Shown: positions 1-4,336 of the stretch, one piece after another | How positions within the stretch are numbered: the stretch's first letter is position 1 | Layout: every line of letters starts with the position of its first letter | Source of the DNA: Pseudobdellovibrionaceae bacterium | Lineage (GTDB): Bacteria; Bdellovibrionota; Bdellovibrionia; Bdellovibrionales; Bdellovibrionaceae | DNA length: 13,233 bases | Direction: 5' to 3' | Assembly (NCBI GenBank): GCA_044359815.1 | Contig: JBIKLL010000073.1 | Coordinates: 1-13,233 of the forward strand | Made by a program: the position numbers and the translations under genes | Notes under the pieces: generated by a model | The model's database searches: none | What the model saw: the letters and a program-made list of their open reading frames with translations, nothing else | What the model was told of the DNA's origin: nothing

Positions 1-84
1 GCCGCCTTAGAGTTGGAAAATTTTGAAGAATTGGGTCCTAAGTCTGCCGACCTAAAATGGTTGATCGGCCCCAAAAATTTTTAG
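1..84 (+). CDS. 3' end of a gene truncated by the window edge; probable SixA-like histidine phosphatase
   Basis: Frame 1 reads AALELENFEELGPKSADLKWLIGPKNF then TAG (82-84). The L-x-W-L-x-x-P-K tail resembles SixA-family C-termini, and sixA often lies near ppx. The catalytic RHG motif would be outside the window. Confidence 0.5.
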   Translation, partial: AALELENFEELGPKSADLKWLIGPKNF

Positions 85-87
85 ATG

Positions 88-471
88 GCCCACATGTCTG
101 CGATTAATTTGAATTTTAAAAAATATTTCTTTGTATTATACCTTTTGAATACATTTGCGAGCGCGCATGGCATATCTCGTGATGCGTAAATGCAAAGATA
201 ATTTTTTTCACTATTTTTAGACACTCGCTAACGGCCGCGGGCTCATCTCTCGTATTGAATCATTATATAAAAGCAATTTTTTGCTTTTATATAATGACTC
301 AACACCAGATATGCCCCGCGCGCTCGCTGCATGTGTCTAAAAACAGTAAAAACAAATTATCTTTGTATTTATGCAATACGAGAGATGAGCTTGCGGCCGT
401 TAGCAAGTATTCAAAAGGTATAATACAAAGAAATATTTTTTAAAATTCAAATTAATCGCAGACAGGTGGGC
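88..471. repeat. Large nested palindromic element (A-B-C-D-E-E'-B'-C'-D'-A')
   Basis: Inverted pairs read directly: A 88-152 / A' 407-471 (64/65 complementary); C 183-224 / C' 333-375 (38/43 with one gap); E 255-276 / E' 281-302 (21/22, TTTT loop); B 157-177 / B' 307-327 (19/21); D 227-255 / D' 376-404 (27/29). Confidence 0.97.
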
Positions 472-477
472 TAGTTG

Positions 478-1401
478 TTAAATCAATCCCCACAGGATGC
501 CATCTTTCAGGCCGACGTGGGGGATAAACATTTTTTCAATCGAAGCTTGTCGCAGAATTAGTTGCACCAATAAAGCCGCTGGTAAAATGACATCCGCGCG
601 GTCTTCACGCAAACCCAATTTTTCAATTCTATCTTTGATCGAATAACTCTGCAGGTGCTGTATGATGATATTCAGCTCCTGCAAGGTCAAAACCGTATTG
701 ACACTGGATTTTAAAATCTGAGATTTCAATTTACCCAAAGCTTCCAAGTTTCCGCCAGTGCCTACAGCAAAATCAAATTTTTCGTTACCGGAATTTTGAA
801 AAAACTGAGTCAATGCTTTTACAAAATCAGCCAAGATCAGCGACAGGTGCTCTTCACTCAAATTACGTTTTTTCAGATTTTGCAAAGTTCTGACGGTGCC
901 AAACGGAAAAGTTTCGGCAAAGGCGATCGCACCTTTGCGCGAACAGGTCAGTTCGACGCTGCCGCCGCCGATGTCGACCAGCAAAGCCGAATGATTTTCC
1001 AGTGAAACTTCTCGCGAAACAGCATCATAGATCAGTTTTGCTTCTTCTATGCCATCAATAATTTCCACTGCAATTTTTGATTTGCGAAACATCAAATCCA
1101 CAAAAGATTGCTTGTTTTTGGCTTCTCTCAAGGCGCTGGTGGCCACGGCTCGGATTTTAGAGACCTGATATTTTTCGGTGACTTCTTTGAATTTTCTAAA
1201 CGTTCTTGCTGATAATTTTAGGTTTTTCCCTGAAATTTCGCCGCTTTTAAATACATCGGCGCCCAGCCTGATTGGAAAACGGTATTTTTTTCTGATCTCT
1301 AAGCCAAGCTCAGTGTGTCTGGCGATCACCATCCTGATGGCGTTGCTGCCGATATCGATGGCTGCCAAATTTTGCTTTTTAGATTCAGTTTGCTTTTTCA
1401 A
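478..1401 (-). CDS. ppx: Ppx/GppA-family exopolyphosphatase, short form without C-terminal HD domain
   Basis: Motifs AAIDIGSNAIR, ATSALREAKN, IIDGIEEA, DIGGGSVE, GTGG, REDRADVI and GLKDG. The ORF track starts at TTG 1467; TTG 1401 (AGGGA upstream) is preferred because the extra 22 codons precede the family start. The start is uncertain. Confidence 0.92.
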   Translation of the reverse strand: MKKQTESKKQNLAAIDIGSNAIRMVIARHTELGLEIRKKYRFPIRLGADVFKSGEISGKNLKLSARTFRKFKEVTEKYQVSKIRAVATSALREAKNKQSFVDLMFRKSKIAVEIIDGIEEAKLIYDAVSREVSLENHSALLVDIGGGSVELTCSRKGAIAFAETFPFGTVRTLQNLKKRNLSEEHLSLILADFVKALTQFFQNSGNEKFDFAVGTGGNLEALGKLKSQILKSSVNTVLTLQELNIIIQHLQSYSIKDRIEKLGLREDRADVILPAALLVQLILRQASIEKMFIPHVGLKDGILWGLI

Positions 1402-1561
1402 TGTACTAACGATCCCTAAATCTGCCGATATCTTCAAGCTAGCTATGGCTTGGTGGCACTGCGACAAAATATGTTAAGCTTTCTTTATTTTATCGTTTTA
1501 TTTTGGCTTCTCTAATAGCCTAGAATCTCGAATATCTGTAATTTCTCAAAAGGTAAAATAT

Positions 1562-2224
1562 ATGGAAAGACAAGTCGACTCACAGCTAGTGATCCTGAAG
1601 AGCCAAATCATGACAATGGCTGGTTATGTTGAAAAAGCTTTGGATGACAGTATCAATGCGTTGATACAAAGGACTGCTGATAAGTTTAAAAAAATTCATG
1701 AAACCGAGGAAAAAATCAACGAGGAGCATGTGCGTATCGACAATAACTGTGTCGCTTTTTTTGCCAGACAATCGCCGCTGGCTAAGGACTTGCGATGGAT
1801 TGTTTCGATCATCAAAATTAATTCTGATTTAGAGCGTATGGGTGATCAATGTGTGAATATCGCTCACACAGGGAAAGACTATCTGCAAAGAAATATTGTT
1901 TTTAAGCTGACTGAGATTTCTCAGATGAGCACTATCGTGCGCAAAATGGTTAAAGATGCCTTGGACAGTTTTGTAACGGAAAATCATGAATTGGCCAGAT
2001 CCGTTATCAAGTGCGATGACGAAGTTGACCATTTGAAAAACCAAGTATTTCGTGAGTTCACAAGCTACATACAGACTCACCCTCAGAATGTGGAAGCGGC
2101 TTTGGATTTGATTTTAATTGCCCGAAATCTGGAACGTCTGGGTGATCATGCGACAAATATTGCCGAAGACGTTATTTATGTGACGACGGGAAAGGACATT
2201 AGACATGGTGGAAAATTCTCGTGA
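1562..2224 (+). CDS. phoU: Phosphate signalling complex protein PhoU
   Basis: Two PhoU repeats: QSPLAKDLR...SDLERMGD and DDEVD...RNLERLGDHATNIAE. AAGGT lies upstream of the ATG. Confidence 0.96.
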   Translation: MERQVDSQLVILKSQIMTMAGYVEKALDDSINALIQRTADKFKKIHETEEKINEEHVRIDNNCVAFFARQSPLAKDLRWIVSIIKINSDLERMGDQCVNIAHTGKDYLQRNIVFKLTEISQMSTIVRKMVKDALDSFVTENHELARSVIKCDDEVDHLKNQVFREFTSYIQTHPQNVEAALDLILIARNLERLGDHATNIAEDVIYVTTGKDIRHGGKFS

Positions 2225-2921
2225 CTTTAAACAAGCAAAGATTCTGGTCGTTGAAGACGAACTGGAAATCAGAGAACTGATTTCATTGTTGCTGTTGCGA
2301 CAGGGGCACGCCGTTCAACATTGTGACAATGGCAAACAAGCTTTTGAATTATTGAAAACAAATCCATTTGATTTGGTTGTGTTGGATTGGATGTTGCCTC
2401 AGCTCAGTGGGATTGATTTTTTAAAGAGCGTCCAAATTGAAAAAATTAAAACTCCAGTGCTGATGGTAACAGCTAAAGCTGAGCCTCAGGATATTGTCCA
2501 GGGGCTGGAAAGCGGAGCAGATGATTACATCACAAAGCCCTTTCAACCCTCTGTTTTTGTAGCCAGGGTCAAGGCTTTGCTGAGGAGATCTCAAGGAAGC
2601 TCTGAAGCTGCAAAAAAATCTGATGAATTGGATTTTGGAAACTTGAAAATTAATTTGGCGTCTTACGAAGTCATTTGTTGTTCTGAAAAAATTCATCTAA
2701 CACCCTCTGAATTCAAAATTCTGAGCACCATGGCATTAAATCAAGGACGAGTGATGACTCGGGATCAATTGGTTGAAATTGTGCAAGGGGAAGGAATCAG
2801 TGTCACCGGCAGAACCATTGACACCCATGTTTTTGGACTCAGAAAAAAATTAAATGAATGTTCTGAATGGATTGAAACCATTCGGGGCGTTGGATATCGA
2901 ATCAGGACGGAAGCCAATTGA
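2205..2921 (+). CDS. phoB: OmpR/PhoB-family response regulator, PhoB-like
   Basis: Receiver domain ILVVEDE, LDWMLP (phosphoacceptor Asp), GADDYITKPF. Winged-helix domain LTPSEF, RTIDTHV, IETIRGVGY. AAGGA 8 nt before the ATG. Overlaps the phoU end and sits between phoU and phoR. Confidence 0.9.
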   Translation: MVENSRDFKQAKILVVEDELEIRELISLLLLRQGHAVQHCDNGKQAFELLKTNPFDLVVLDWMLPQLSGIDFLKSVQIEKIKTPVLMVTAKAEPQDIVQGLESGADDYITKPFQPSVFVARVKALLRRSQGSSEAAKKSDELDFGNLKINLASYEVICCSEKIHLTPSEFKILSTMALNQGRVMTRDQLVEIVQGEGISVTGRTIDTHVFGLRKKLNECSEWIETIRGVGYRIRTEAN

Positions 2922-4336
2922 TGGGGCCGTTTTTCCCATGGCGTTTGTTTTGGAAATCATTTTTAACACTCAGTCTGGTCAGCTCGATTTTGTTGGGTGG
3001 AATTGTTTTAGTGCAGACTATAGTTCACCAAGAGCAGTATCTTTTGGCATGGGTGTTTGGATCGGCTTTGTTTTCTCTGTTTTCGCTATGGTATGCCTTT
3101 AAAATCAGTGTGCCTTTGCGGCGAATAATCTTTAGGTCTATGCGAATGGCCTACAGAAGGCGGTTTGCTGATTTAACCGATGAAATCAGTGACACTGATT
3201 TAGTTGAAGACGATCCCGGAGAGTATTTTGAACTGGAGCGAGCTTTAACAAAGATTCGCAAGAAACTTAAAAAACGCCGTGATCAGTTGAGTGAAGAAAG
3301 AGATGAATCTAAAGCTTTGATGAGTGCTTTAACGGATGCCGTTGTCAGTGTTGATTTGCAGGACAGGGTTAGGTTTTACAATTCAAAATTTGCTATTCAG
3401 TTTTTACCAAATAAACAGCAGTCAGAATTAGTGTTCACTCAAATTTTTCGCGAACCTGAGCTTTTATTACTGATCAAAGAAGTGATTAAAAACCAACAAT
3501 CTAAAACCAGAATTTTGTTTTTAAAAAATCCAATCACGACGGCCTATAAATATTATTCCATAACCATTTCGCCTGTAGTTAGTGAGTCTGAGGCTCTTTT
3601 GTCAGGTGTGTTGCTGCTGTTTCATGATATTTCTGAAGTTAAGCGGGCTGAGCAGATCAGGATAGAATTTGTGGAAAACGCTTCTCATGAATTGCGGACT
3701 CCGCTGACCTCGATCAAGGGATATCTGGATGCATTGATGGATGATTTTAAGACTGGAAATGTCACTAAGGCATCAGAGTTTTTAGCCATCATTTCAAAAA
3801 GTGTAGACCGGCTTAGTTTGCTGGTTAACGACATGCTCAATTTAGCTCATTTAGATGCGGGGGCTGGGTTGCAGAAAGAGCTTATCGATCCCTCCATAGT
3901 TTCAGAACAAGTAATCCAAGAGTTGGCGACTTTAGCCAAAAGCAAAAAAATCCAGATCAATTTAAGCAACAAGGCTATGCATTTTTCAGCAGATTCCGCA
4001 AAAATCGAACAGGTATTGGAAAACCTGATTGGCAATGCGATCAAATATGTGCAAGAAGGCGGTGCCATCAATGTATCCTGGGAAATGGCAAATGATAGCA
4101 TTGCTCTGAAGGTTTCCGACAACGGGCCGGGAATTGAAGCAGAGCATCTGCCGAGATTGTTTGAAAGATTCTATCGGGTGGACAAAGGCAGGGCCCGGGA
4201 TGCGGGTGGCACTGGTTTGGGGTTAGCCATAGTTAAACACATAGTTCAAAGCCATGGAGGGGAAGTGGAAGTTGCTTCGACCATGGGCAAAGGATCTGAA
4301 TTTATTTGCTATTTTCCGAAAACTGCAGATCATTAA
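2921..4336 (+). CDS. phoR: Sensor histidine kinase, PhoR-like (two TM helices, PAS-like region, HisKA, HATPase)
   Basis: H box NASHELRTPLT, N box NLIGNAIKY, DNGPGI, LFERFYRVDKGRAR, GTGLGLAIVKH. Two hydrophobic N-terminal segments. TGATG stop/start overlap with phoB at 2919-2923. Confidence 0.9.
   Translation: MGPFFPWRLFWKSFLTLSLVSSILLGGIVLVQTIVHQEQYLLAWVFGSALFSLFSLWYAFKISVPLRRIIFRSMRMAYRRRFADLTDEISDTDLVEDDPGEYFELERALTKIRKKLKKRRDQLSEERDESKALMSALTDAVVSVDLQDRVRFYNSKFAIQFLPNKQQSELVFTQIFREPELLLLIKEVIKNQQSKTRILFLKNPITTAYKYYSITISPVVSESEALLSGVLLLFHDISEVKRAEQIRIEFVENASHELRTPLTSIKGYLDALMDDFKTGNVTKASEFLAIISKSVDRLSLLVNDMLNLAHLDAGAGLQKELIDPSIVSEQVIQELATLAKSKKIQINLSNKAMHFSADSAKIEQVLENLIGNAIKYVQEGGAINVSWEMANDSIALKVSDNGPGIEAEHLPRLFERFYRVDKGRARDAGGTGLGLAIVKHIVQSHGGEVEVASTMGKGSEFICYFPKTADH

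What the first reader, a model, noticed from the sequence alone, without database searches (positions are those of the whole stretch)
157..404. Covariation suggests the bulged D:B' duplex is the selected structure
Seen: within the cores, B and B' differ at two adjacent positions (167-168 vs 317-316), and D and D' also differ at two adjacent positions (239-240 vs 392-391). In the rod fold these are the same two base pairs. The inner copy has G239:C317 and G240:C316 (CGCGGG/CCCGCG). The outer copy has A167:T392, a compensatory change, and T168/T391, a mismatch (CGCATG/CTTGCG). The non-paired features are identical in both copies: the CATCTCT/AGATATG central mismatch and the TAACG-versus-TC internal loop. 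Inference: a protein recognises a folded ssDNA or RNA duplex with fixed bulges, as integrases do at attC and HUH transposases do at REP hairpins. Because the two copies are opposed, each strand presents one copy of each face.
Basis: partly seen in the sequence, partly recalled or inferred. Interest (0 to 1): 0.8.

Follow-up and report, generated by a model that had tools for sequence, protein, structure and literature searches.

The report
Nested hairpin repeat with conserved bulged core
The stretch is one copy of a non-coding, hairpin-shaped repeat that has multiplied in an uncultured Bdellovibrio-like bacterium; its bulged central duplex is kept while its stems change on both sides together, as in REPIN-type mobile repeats, and the enzyme that moves it is unknown.

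Summary
Window 88-471 is a 384-nt near-perfect palindrome (DNA fold -143 kcal/mol, z -27.6).

It is one of many copies. The own genome has 105 BLAST places, 102 paired B..D' units and 136 D' motifs. A few copies occur in two genomes of another family of the order, and 0 of 181 other genomes of the own family have the motif.

In the own genome there are 42 GCGGG/CCCGC and 30 GCATG/CTTGC units and no mixed combination. The bulges and an A.G mismatch are kept in all three core types. Outer arms and the apical hairpin vary between copies but stay complementary within each copy.

Elements lie outside genes, mostly between convergent genes (38 of 57). One empty site shows that the whole palindrome is an insertion.

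Best reading: a REPIN/MITE-like non-autonomous element that moves as a single-stranded hairpin, with the bulged duplex as the protein recognition site. No partner enzyme is shown. Y1/HUH (RAYT-like) genes are candidates only, and none lies next to an element. It is a new variant of a known kind. This scan has noted the same architecture in other genomes.

The parts
88..156 (.). Left outer arm; pairs with 405-471
   Evidence: 65-nt arms, 98% complementary; 43 of 74 arm pairs change on both sides among 14 copies.
157..187 (+). B: 5' half of the outer core unit (sense on +).
   Evidence: Invariant in 14 aligned copies except C/G at 178 and A/T at 182, plus a short/long allele at 166-170.
188..224 (.). 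M: spacer stem; pairs with 328-380
   Evidence: I3, I6; helix 2, 41 of 55 pairs never vary.
225..262 (-). D: reverse complement of the inner unit's 3' half (D'-type), with G239 G240
   Evidence: I2; inner unit hit by the covariance model at window 219-335, minus strand, 65.9 bits.
263..296 (.). Apical hairpin: hypervariable between copies, always paired
   Evidence: sequence and length differ between copies (34 to about 60 nt) with matching halves; 5 pairs with double changes.
297..327 (-). B': reverse complement of the inner unit's 5' half (B-type), with C316 C317
   Evidence: (I5).
328..380 (.). M': spacer stem; pairs with 188-224
381..404 (+). D': 3' half of the outer core unit, with T391 T392. 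Its ...GAGATGAGCTTGCGGCCGTTAGC motif occurs 136 times in the genome.
405..471 (.). Right outer arm
478..1467 (-). Context: Ppx/GppA phosphatase gene. Its stop codon lies 7 nt from the element's right end.
   Evidence: PF02541, 147 bits.

Best explanation
Window 88-471 is a copy of a non-autonomous, hairpin-shaped mobile repeat.

The basic unit is a roughly 75-nt asymmetric 'core'. A 5' half (B) and a 3' half (D') pair into a rod with fixed irregularities:
- a G.A mismatch and a G.T wobble;
- a 2-nt bulge;
- a 3-bp variable helix (P2);
- a 1x2 internal loop;
- an A.G mismatch.

The core is closed on the outside by long arms and capped on the inside by a hairpin. Arms and cap need only pair.

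The window copy is a 'double': a second unit sits in the opposite orientation inside the cap of the first.

Inferred mechanism (not shown): the element is copied or moved as a single strand, most likely ssDNA. That strand folds into the rod. A trans-acting protein recognises the bulged core by shape and sequence. Only elements whose arms still pair propagate, so arms drift in sequence but stay complementary.

The most plausible enzyme class is a Y1/HUH transposase (RAYT-like), of which this genome has 11 genes. No gene is linked to the element.
For: Shown:

1. Multi-copy and lineage-restricted. There are 105 BLAST places, 102 paired units and 136 D' motifs in the own genome. The motif occurs in only 2 of the 383 other genomes of the order, and in 0 of 181 of the own family. 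The covariance model finds 75 hits in the own genome, 8 in G340 and 4 in G342. Summed word depth in four lake-metagenome DNA runs is 200-1700 in the core against 5-7 in the flank.

2. Insertion. At the miaA site of G340 there are 312 nt between conserved blocks, against 66 nt in G342 and 57 nt in G343. The difference is the whole roughly 240-nt palindrome.

3. Core conserved, arms not. In type III copies (n=11), cores are 77% identical. Arms are 59% identical between copies, the same as the shuffled control (58%). Within a copy they are 87% complementary. In type I, arm complementarity within a copy is 0.915 against 0.767 identity between copies.

4. Covariation; 11 of 23 core pairs show double changes. 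Pair 25:136 is G:C in 17 rows and A:U in 11, with none unpaired. P2 has many pair types; 48 of 168 pairs show double changes (0 of 500 shuffles as high).

5. Strand asymmetry. The sense strand is more stable in 12 of 12 units. A G.U wobble is kept in 24 of 29 cores. Among arm mismatches shared by 3 or more copies, 8 are G.T and 1 is A.C.

6. Location. 0 of 69 elements lie inside ORFs, and 38 of 57 lie between convergent genes (11.3 expected).

7. No reverse transcriptase, TnpB or IS110 was found. The only multi-copy mobile-type proteins are Y1/HUH and HNH.

8. Compensatory changes in REPIN hairpins are described as common (PMC3116915, passages read).
Against: - No Y1 gene lies within 5 kb of a long palindrome (0 of 11).
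- The canonical RAYT gene is flanked by a different inverted repeat, which has its own roughly 300-nt repeat family.
- The 206-aa RAYT-like family occurs in 19 of 60 sampled genomes of the own family, none of which has the D' motif.
- In genus g109, G341 has 6 RAYT-like genes but no covariance-model hit.
- No target-site duplication or conserved insertion motif was seen.
- Orientation shows no bias against GC skew (32 of 65) or the coding strand. Such a bias is expected for IS200/IS605-type ssDNA insertion.
- The G.T excess is not significant when each position and type is counted once (26 versus 17, p 0.22).
- Arms unrelated between type III copies are hard to reach by stepwise compensated substitution alone.
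Confidence: 0.45

Rival explanations
1. The core is a cis-acting structured RNA or a bidirectional terminator/3'-end stabiliser. It is selected at each locus, so arms co-vary in situ. Its spread is secondary.
For: - 38 of 57 elements lie between convergent genes and none lies in an ORF.
- The window copy sits 7 nt after a stop codon.
- The sense strand folds better in 12 of 12 units, and a G.U wobble is conserved.
- Arms have diverged to the random level yet still pair in type III. That fits long in-situ selection.
Against: - There is no Rfam match above threshold. Only sub-threshold miRNA-hairpin hits appear.
- No promoter-like or terminator-like site was found inside the element.
- The sense orientation is unrelated to the flanking gene direction (9 same, 7 opposite).
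- Doubles carry both orientations.
- About 100 copies in one genome and none in 181 relatives is the pattern of a selfish repeat.
Confidence: 0.2
2. The arms are perfect because of how the DNA is made, not because of selection. At each move one arm is re-synthesised from the other by fold-back priming from the core hairpin, possibly picking up donor-flank sequence.
For: - Arms are copy-specific and unrelated between type III copies, while cores stay 77% identical.
- Arm similarity between type I subfamilies is proximal only, an 'onion' pattern.
- In 69 of 156 long palindromes, the distal arm matches nothing else in the genome.
- Earlier notes of this scan proposed the same for look-alike repeats (e1-817729, e1-702887).
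Against: - The same arm mismatches are shared by up to 9 copies.
- A fixed ACATTT/ACTT bulge next to the core is inherited. Both points mean the arms are transmitted as they are.
- The empty site shows that neither arm derives from the target.
- No donor flank was found (a coarse test).
Confidence: 0.15
3. A tyrosine recombinase (Xer-type or integrase) recombines the folded single strand, as IntI does at attC or XerCD at the folded CTX attP.
For: The architecture resembles attC: a bulged duplex plus a variable terminal hairpin, recognised on one strand (this comparison is recalled, not from a call). The genome has two tyrosine recombinases.
Against: - Only two recombinases were found, of housekeeping size (312 and 324 aa), and no paralogue expansion.
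- Elements are dispersed at many sites, not in cassette arrays or at one dif-like site.
- The D' end GTTAGC[A/G] does not fit the attC R' consensus as I recall it.
Confidence: 0.07
4. It is an ordinary DDE-type MITE. The arms are terminal inverted repeats bound by a transposase, and the cores are passenger sequence.
For: Type I arms form recognisable families with a common outer end (..AGCTGGCCCAC..). A second core ('family X') sits between similar-looking AT-rich arms.
Against: - Arm sequence is not conserved.
- An arm profile hits only 3 family X sites out of 102 hits.
- No target-site duplication was seen.
- No multi-copy DDE transposase was found among 2912 ORFs.
Confidence: 0.05

Closest known systems
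REPINs / REP-BIME elements mobilised by RAYT (TnpA_REP) transposases (PMC3116915, PMC2817692, PMC3733652)
   Same: - Non-coding, extragenic and high-copy.
- Folds into a long hairpin in ssDNA or RNA.
- Built from two related half-sites in inverted orientation.
- Compensatory changes in the hairpin (PMC3116915 passages).
- The genome encodes RAYT-type Y1/HUH proteins.
   Different: - The unit is 75-125 nt and whole elements are 200-560 nt, not about 100 nt.
- The conserved part is interior and asymmetric (bulged), while the outer arms vary. In REPINs the ends are conserved and the spacer varies.
- Units nest inside each other in opposite orientation instead of lying side by side.
- I saw no GTAG or CGTC tag in the core.
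- No RAYT gene is flanked by the element.
TIRtron TIR repeat families (TIRYT transposases; PMC3733652, passages read)
   Same: Y1-type transposase genes occur in a genome that holds dispersed palindromic repeat families. The paper notes that gene presence and repeat presence need not correlate.
   Different: By definition, TIRs flank the TIRYT gene. Here, conservation around the 8 paralogous Y1-like genes ends at the ORF plus about 80 nt upstream. No inverted repeats flank them.
Integron attC sites
   Same: Both are recognised as a folded single strand. Both have a conserved bulged duplex with extrahelical bases and a variable terminal stem-loop (recalled knowledge).
   Different: There are no cassette arrays and no integron integrase. 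The R''/R' consensus is not met. Long outer arms are present.
Bacterial MITEs such as Correia, ERIC and Nezha
   Same: Small, intergenic, palindromic and non-coding, and often found at gene 3' ends.
   Different: The terminal sequences are not conserved. No target-site duplication or parent IS was found.
Look-alike repeats noted earlier in this scan (e1-2398669 in Bdellovibrio-like bacteria; e1-702887, e1-817729, e1-2143745, e1-2994227 in other phyla)
   Same: A conserved centre with copy-specific, perfectly matching arms.
   Different: I could not compare the sequences. A look-up with this element's sequence found nothing. Nesting of opposed units was not mentioned in those notes.

Membership tests
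REPIN / REP (RAYT-mobilised) | Two related half-sites in inverted orientation that fold into a hairpin, with compensatory change | tested here: met
REPIN / REP (RAYT-mobilised) | Extragenic and high-copy within a genome | tested here: met
   0 of 69 inside ORFs.
REPIN / REP (RAYT-mobilised) | A cognate RAYT gene flanked by the same repeat (REPtron) | tested here: not met
   0 of 11 Y1 genes lie within 5 kb of a long palindrome; the canonical RAYT is flanked by a different repeat family.
REPIN / REP (RAYT-mobilised) | A short (20-40 nt) REP with a conserved GTAG or CGTC tag at one end | tested here: not met
   Inspection of the cores. The unit is about 75 nt and no such tag was seen at its foot. 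No formal scan was run.
REPIN / REP (RAYT-mobilised) | Binding and cleavage by the Y1/HUH enzyme | not testable with these tools
   This needs protein-ssDNA assays.
DDE-type MITE | Conserved terminal inverted repeats shared with a parent IS | tested here: not met
   arm sequence is not conserved; no multi-copy DDE transposase among 2912 ORFs.
DDE-type MITE | Target-site duplication | tested here: inconclusive
   none is obvious at 69 elements; the one empty site is too diverged to fix the junctions.
Integron attC | Lies at cassette boundaries next to an intI gene; R''/R' core sites | tested here: not met
   two tyrosine recombinases only. Elements are dispersed. The D' end reads GTTAGC[A/G]; the consensus it is compared with is recalled.
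IS200/IS605-derived PATE | Ends related to an IS200/IS605 element (TnpA with or without TnpB) in the genome, and strand-biased insertion | tested here: not met
   no TnpB; the Y1-like genes have no conserved ends; orientation is 32 of 65 relative to GC skew.
Known structured RNA (Rfam 15) | A match at or above a family's gathering score | tested here: not met

The most novel reading that the evidence does not exclude
The element, its type II/III relatives, 'family X' in the same genome and the look-alikes noted elsewhere in this scan may be one undescribed class of hairpin-borne mobile DNA. In this class the only heritable identity is a small asymmetric core at the centre of a hairpin. The arms are free, or regenerated at each move. 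The mobilising enzyme would not be a classical REPtron RAYT.
Probability: 0.2. Interest if true: 0.8.

Novelty: new variant of a known kind. Interest (0 to 1): 0.55.

Why it matters
If the reading holds, this genome is a natural experiment in structure-only inheritance of mobile DNA. About 100 copies share a bulged recognition duplex, while everything around it is constrained only to pair.

That gives a ready-made covariation data set for defining what a hairpin-recognising enzyme reads. It also offers a test bed with one genome, three repeat families and 11 Y1/HUH genes for matching enzymes to repeats.

Practically, the elements break the assembly: many contigs end in them. They also replace gene 3' ends, as at the miaA C-terminus in G340.

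The phenomenon recurs in unrelated phyla according to this scan's notes. The two searches listed no paper on such repeats in Bdellovibrionota.

Tried and rejected
- Rfam at gathering and E-value thresholds: only sub-threshold miRNA-precursor hairpin matches.
- Promoter/terminator scan of window 1-700: nothing inside the element.
- Orientation against GC skew and coding strand: no bias.
- Neighbour genes of the 12 G340/G342 copies: ordinary housekeeping genes, with no recurrent partner. One shared neighbour with the own genome (the C5 locus) is within chance expectation.
- HNH (DUF222-like) multi-copy genes: 2 of 7 lie next to an element (C8, C48), but their downstream regions share nothing else. 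Judged coincidence.
- Inverted repeats around a RAYT-like gene (C56): none convincing.
- A dif-like reading of the B half. A fuzzy search of the genome with a recalled dif consensus gave only 4 hits at 8 mismatches. Dropped.
- Family X core pattern in genus g109: 0 of 5 genomes.
- Viral contigs gave 2 pattern matches and metagenome contigs gave 32. The covariance model confirmed only 1 of these 34, weakly (L110, 21.6 bits). The rest are taken as chance matches.
- Sequencing runs: no RNA holder listed.
- Logan contigs of four DNA runs: they break inside the element. No contig joins across it, so no population-level empty site was obtained.
- Donor-flank test: confounded by element copies missing from my palindrome list. 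Only the count of arms that match nothing else is used.
- The outer unit of the window copy is not found whole by covariance model R1, because about 200 nt lie between its halves. The hit at window 310-412 (24 bits) is a mis-pairing. It was left in alignment A3, as was the long-allele row L051.

Full report
**What is there**

Window 88-471 is a 384-nt imperfect palindrome centred near 279. The outer arms 88-152 and 407-471 are 98% complementary, and several nested inverted repeats lie inside. As single-stranded DNA it folds into one long rod. The fold is -143.3 kcal/mol, against -41.6 +/- 3.7 for 100 shuffles, z -27.6.

- A167 T168 in B face T392 T391 in D'.
- G239 G240 in D face C317 C316 in B'.

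Two descriptions need adjusting.
- The 'CATCTCT/AGATATG central mismatch' is a 6-bp helix with one central mismatch.
- The 'TAACG versus TC loop' looks different on the strand that reads B then D'. There it is GCGAGCG paired with CGTTAGC, with one G.A mismatch and one G.T wobble, followed by a 2-nt bulge.

**It is a repeat family**

A BLAST of window 80-480 against the window's own genome gives 105 merged places. That genome is G000: 2.95 Mb, 125 contigs, 91% complete. Of the 105 places, 34 cover at least 280 nt of the query, and 4 of those are cut by contig ends. Many contigs end in the element.

Motif scans find 146 D heads, 132 D tails, 107 B heads and 152 B tails in 128 clusters. I paired 102 B..D' units on their own strand. 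Of these, 69 are outermost and 33 are nested inside another unit.

The family therefore has a basic unit: outer arms, B, a hairpin, D', outer arms. The window copy is a 'double', with a second unit in the opposite orientation sitting in the cap of the first. Simple one-unit elements also exist. Examples are C5:4284-4371, C110:641-720, C62:2050-2160, C107:28870-28980 and C46:15029-15152.

**Three core types**

- Type I is the window's kind.
- Type II is a diverged subfamily in the same genome (C10, C26, C33:133506, C124:43788, C68 and others).
- Type III occurs in two Bdellovibrionales MAGs of another family of the order (G340 and G342).

An exact D' pattern occurs 136 times in the own genome. 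It occurs in only 2 of the 383 other genomes of the order, and in 0 of 181 other genomes of the own family.

A covariance model of the basal rod (R1) finds 75 hits in the own genome, 8 in G340 and 4 in G342. It finds none in G339, G341 or G343 of the same genus. Only 150 of 449-904 first-look candidates were scored per genome.

Pattern scans of viral and metagenome contigs gave 2 and 32 matches. R1 confirms only one of these 34, weakly.

The window is held by lake-water metagenome DNA runs from 2020 and 2024. There, summed word depth is 200-1700 in the core and 5-7 in the flank. The repeat is therefore not an assembly artefact.

The two positions belong to a short helix, P2. It consists of a conserved G:C and C:G followed by three variable pairs.

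In the own genome:
- 42 units read GCGGG/CCCGC.
- 30 units read GCATG/CTTGC (A:T, T.T, G:C).
- None of these 72 mixes the two.
- One unit has GCATG/CATGC, with the T.T repaired to T:A.
- About 20 units carry a long B allele in which a mini-hairpin is inserted.

The split largely follows position: 27 of 33 inner units are GCGGG/CCCGC, and the outer units of doubles are GCATG/CTTGC or carry the long allele. Within type I it therefore counts as few independent events.

The wider set adds AGG/CCT, TGG/CCT, ATG/CAT (G340), (C)ACT/AGT, TCT/AGT, TTT/AAA and TAG/CTT.

On 29 cores aligned to R1 (two poor rows not removed):
- 86.0% of cells are paired, against 79.5% in shuffles (0 of 500 shuffles as high).
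- With partners slid, 34-49% are paired.
- 11 of 23 pairs have changes on both sides.
- In the neighbouring helix, pair 25:136 is G:C in 17 rows and A:U in 11, with none unpaired.

That alignment was fitted to the model, which favours the structure. The bulges, the A.G mismatch and the G.U wobble (24 of 29 rows) are kept in all three types.

**Arms and cap co-vary much more than the core**

I aligned 14 full doubles: the window plus 13 of the 34 full copies. They were chosen because they share the short cap. The C26 copy was left out because its left arm is replaced. On this alignment the window's MFE structure is 95.2% paired, against 89.8% in shuffles (0 of 500) and 35-50% when slid. In all, 48 of 168 pairs change on both sides:

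| Region | Pairs with double changes |
|---|---|
| Outer arms | 43 of 74 |
| D-cap-B' helix (all in the cap) | 5 of 39 |
| B-M/M'-D' helix (41 pairs never vary) | 0 of 55 |

Over 49 outer units, the 60-nt arms are 0.915 complementary within a copy but 0.767 identical between copies. In type III (n=11), arms are 0.87 complementary within a copy. Between copies they are 0.59 identical, equal to a shuffled control (0.58), while cores are 0.77 identical.

The longer caps differ in sequence and length between copies yet always pair.

**Evidence for mobility**

The G340 copy between miaA and the next gene spans 312 nt between conserved blocks. The same site is 66 nt in G342 and 57 nt in G343. The whole palindrome, both arms included, is therefore the insertion, and it replaces the last codons of miaA. 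The junctions are too diverged to call a target-site duplication, and none is obvious at 69 elements.

Location of the elements:
- 0 of 69 lie inside ORFs.
- Of the 57 with two neighbours, 38 lie between convergent genes (11.3 expected).
- 16 are in tandem settings (31.3 expected).
- 3 lie between divergent genes (14.4 expected).

The window copy ends 7 nt from the stop codon of a Ppx/GppA gene.

**Which strand, and which molecule**

The B->D' strand folds better than its complement in 12 of 12 short units, under both DNA and RNA parameters.

In the arms of 56 outer units there are 61 G.T against 25 A.C mismatches on that strand (p 1.3e-4). Copies are related, however. Counting each position and type once gives 26 against 17 (p 0.22). 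Among mismatches shared by three or more copies, 8 are G.T and 1 is A.C.

This is suggestive of selection on one folded strand, not proof.

No reverse transcriptase was found in the 91%-complete genome. That favours ssDNA over an RNA route.

**Search for the partner enzyme**

Among 2912 ORFs, the multi-copy protein families are:
- 8 paralogues of a 206-aa Y1/HUH protein;
- 2 more distant Y1/HUH relatives;
- two HNH (DUF222-like) families.

There is also one canonical RAYT (211 aa; NF047646 72.5 bits against a cut-off of 80; PF01797 33.5 bits). JGI names relatives of the 206-aa protein 'REP element-mobilizing transposase RayT'.

None of the 11 Y1 genes lies within 5 kb of a long palindrome. Conservation around the paralogues stops at the ORF plus about 80 nt upstream.

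The family occurs in 19 of 60 sampled genomes of the own family, none of which has the D' motif. In genus g109, G340 and G342 have both the protein and the element, G341 has 6 genes but no element hit, and G339 and G343 have neither.

TnpB and IS110 were not found. Only two tyrosine recombinases are present. The enzyme is therefore open, and Y1/HUH is a candidate by analogy only.

**How I read it**

The only part conserved between genomes is the bulged core, so it must carry the element's identity. It is most simply the site that a trans-acting protein recognises on the folded single strand.

The arms and cap are constrained only to pair. Shared arm mismatches (up to 9 copies) and a fixed bulge next to the core show that arms are passed on as they are. 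This favours selection on propagation over re-synthesis of one arm at each move.

The complete unrelatedness of type III arms keeps the re-synthesis idea alive. That idea was also raised in earlier notes of this scan. A cis-RNA or terminator role cannot be excluded and could coexist with mobility.

**Comparison with what is known**

REPINs are the closest known kind. They are extragenic hairpins built from inverted half-sites and are linked to RAYTs. [quoted passage not shown]

This element differs from REPINs in several ways:
- size;
- a conserved asymmetric interior with free arms, the reverse of the REPIN layout;
- nesting of opposed units;
- no RAYT gene flanked by the repeat.

TIRtron repeats (PMC3733652, passages read) likewise require flanking of the gene. 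Membership of REPINs in the strict sense is therefore not met, although the working resemblance is strong.

Two literature searches (listings only) returned nothing on such repeats in Bdellovibrionota. The scan's own notes list look-alikes in several phyla, one in Bdellovibrio-like bacteria. A look-up by sequence found none identical.

**Verdict**

This is a new variant of a known kind of bacterial repeat. It has an unusually clear structure-only signature and no known mobilising enzyme.

Noticed in passing
own genome, e.g. G000:C13:51827-52009, C101:4339-4505, C49:34716-34878, C122:7132-7316, C53:15510-15709 (loci L138-L142): 'Family X' has at least 25 copies of a different GC-rich core of about 55-70 nt (..CCTCTGCGGAGCC..GGCGGGGGC..CCCGAGC..GGAGCTGTG..), found in either orientation. 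It too is flanked by copy-specific, perfectly complementary AT-rich arms. There is no Rfam match, and the core pattern was not found in genus g109.
   Followed up: partly
G000:C8:9501-10136 (L037) and e.g. C2:3190-3492 (L143), C20:40383-40682, C106:36503-36803, C3:3006-3307, C54:8612-8913: A canonical RAYT gene is flanked by a 40-nt inverted repeat (GAAAAGAGACCGTACGACTTTTTCTG..). The same sequence forms the ends of at least 9 palindromic elements of about 300 nt. This looks like a classical REPtron/REPIN pair, separate from the B/D' family.
   Followed up: partly
G000: C23:201-821, C48:48177-48797, C56:2969-3616, C47:11964-12584, C49:93331-93951, C100:633-1253, C125:2378-2998, C8:23373-24056: Eight paralogues (86-92% identical) of a 206-aa Y1/HUH RAYT-like protein. 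Each has its own conserved promoter-like 80 nt upstream and no conserved ends. Homologues are multi-copy in many relatives, up to 11 per genome.
   Followed up: partly
G000: C35:422-1780, C107:10375-11331, C17:6733-7377, C34:72-920; C19:583-1965, C48:29396-30394, C8:4044-5252: Two multi-copy HNH (DUF222-like) gene families. Several of the genes are followed by tandem repeats of about 76-90 nt (..CACAACAATTGGCG..). Two of the genes lie next to B/D' elements.
   Followed up: partly
L062/L095 (G340:C54) 700-1020: The element insertion supplies the last 11 or so codons and the stop codon of miaA. The arm also creates mirrored ORFs on both strands.
   Followed up: yes
window 166-170 and the same place in other copies: B has a short allele (CATGG) and a long allele (ACGkTTAATTTAyCGCCG). 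The long allele adds a CGGT/ACCG mini-hairpin to the rod. It occurs in about 20 units, mostly outer ones.
   Followed up: partly
caps of type I elements, e.g. C46:15029-15152, C93:11033-11453, C13:32663-33024: The apical loop GATAATTTATTAATC is asymmetric. It reads in the sense orientation in 7 of 7 simple units that I looked at. It reads as its reverse complement in most doubles, as expected from the inverted inner unit, but not in C93 and C13. This may be a flip/flop.
   Followed up: no
window 1562-4336: phoU, a phoB-like response regulator and a phoR-like histidine kinase follow the Ppx/GppA gene. This is an ordinary phosphate-regulon neighbourhood.
   Followed up: no
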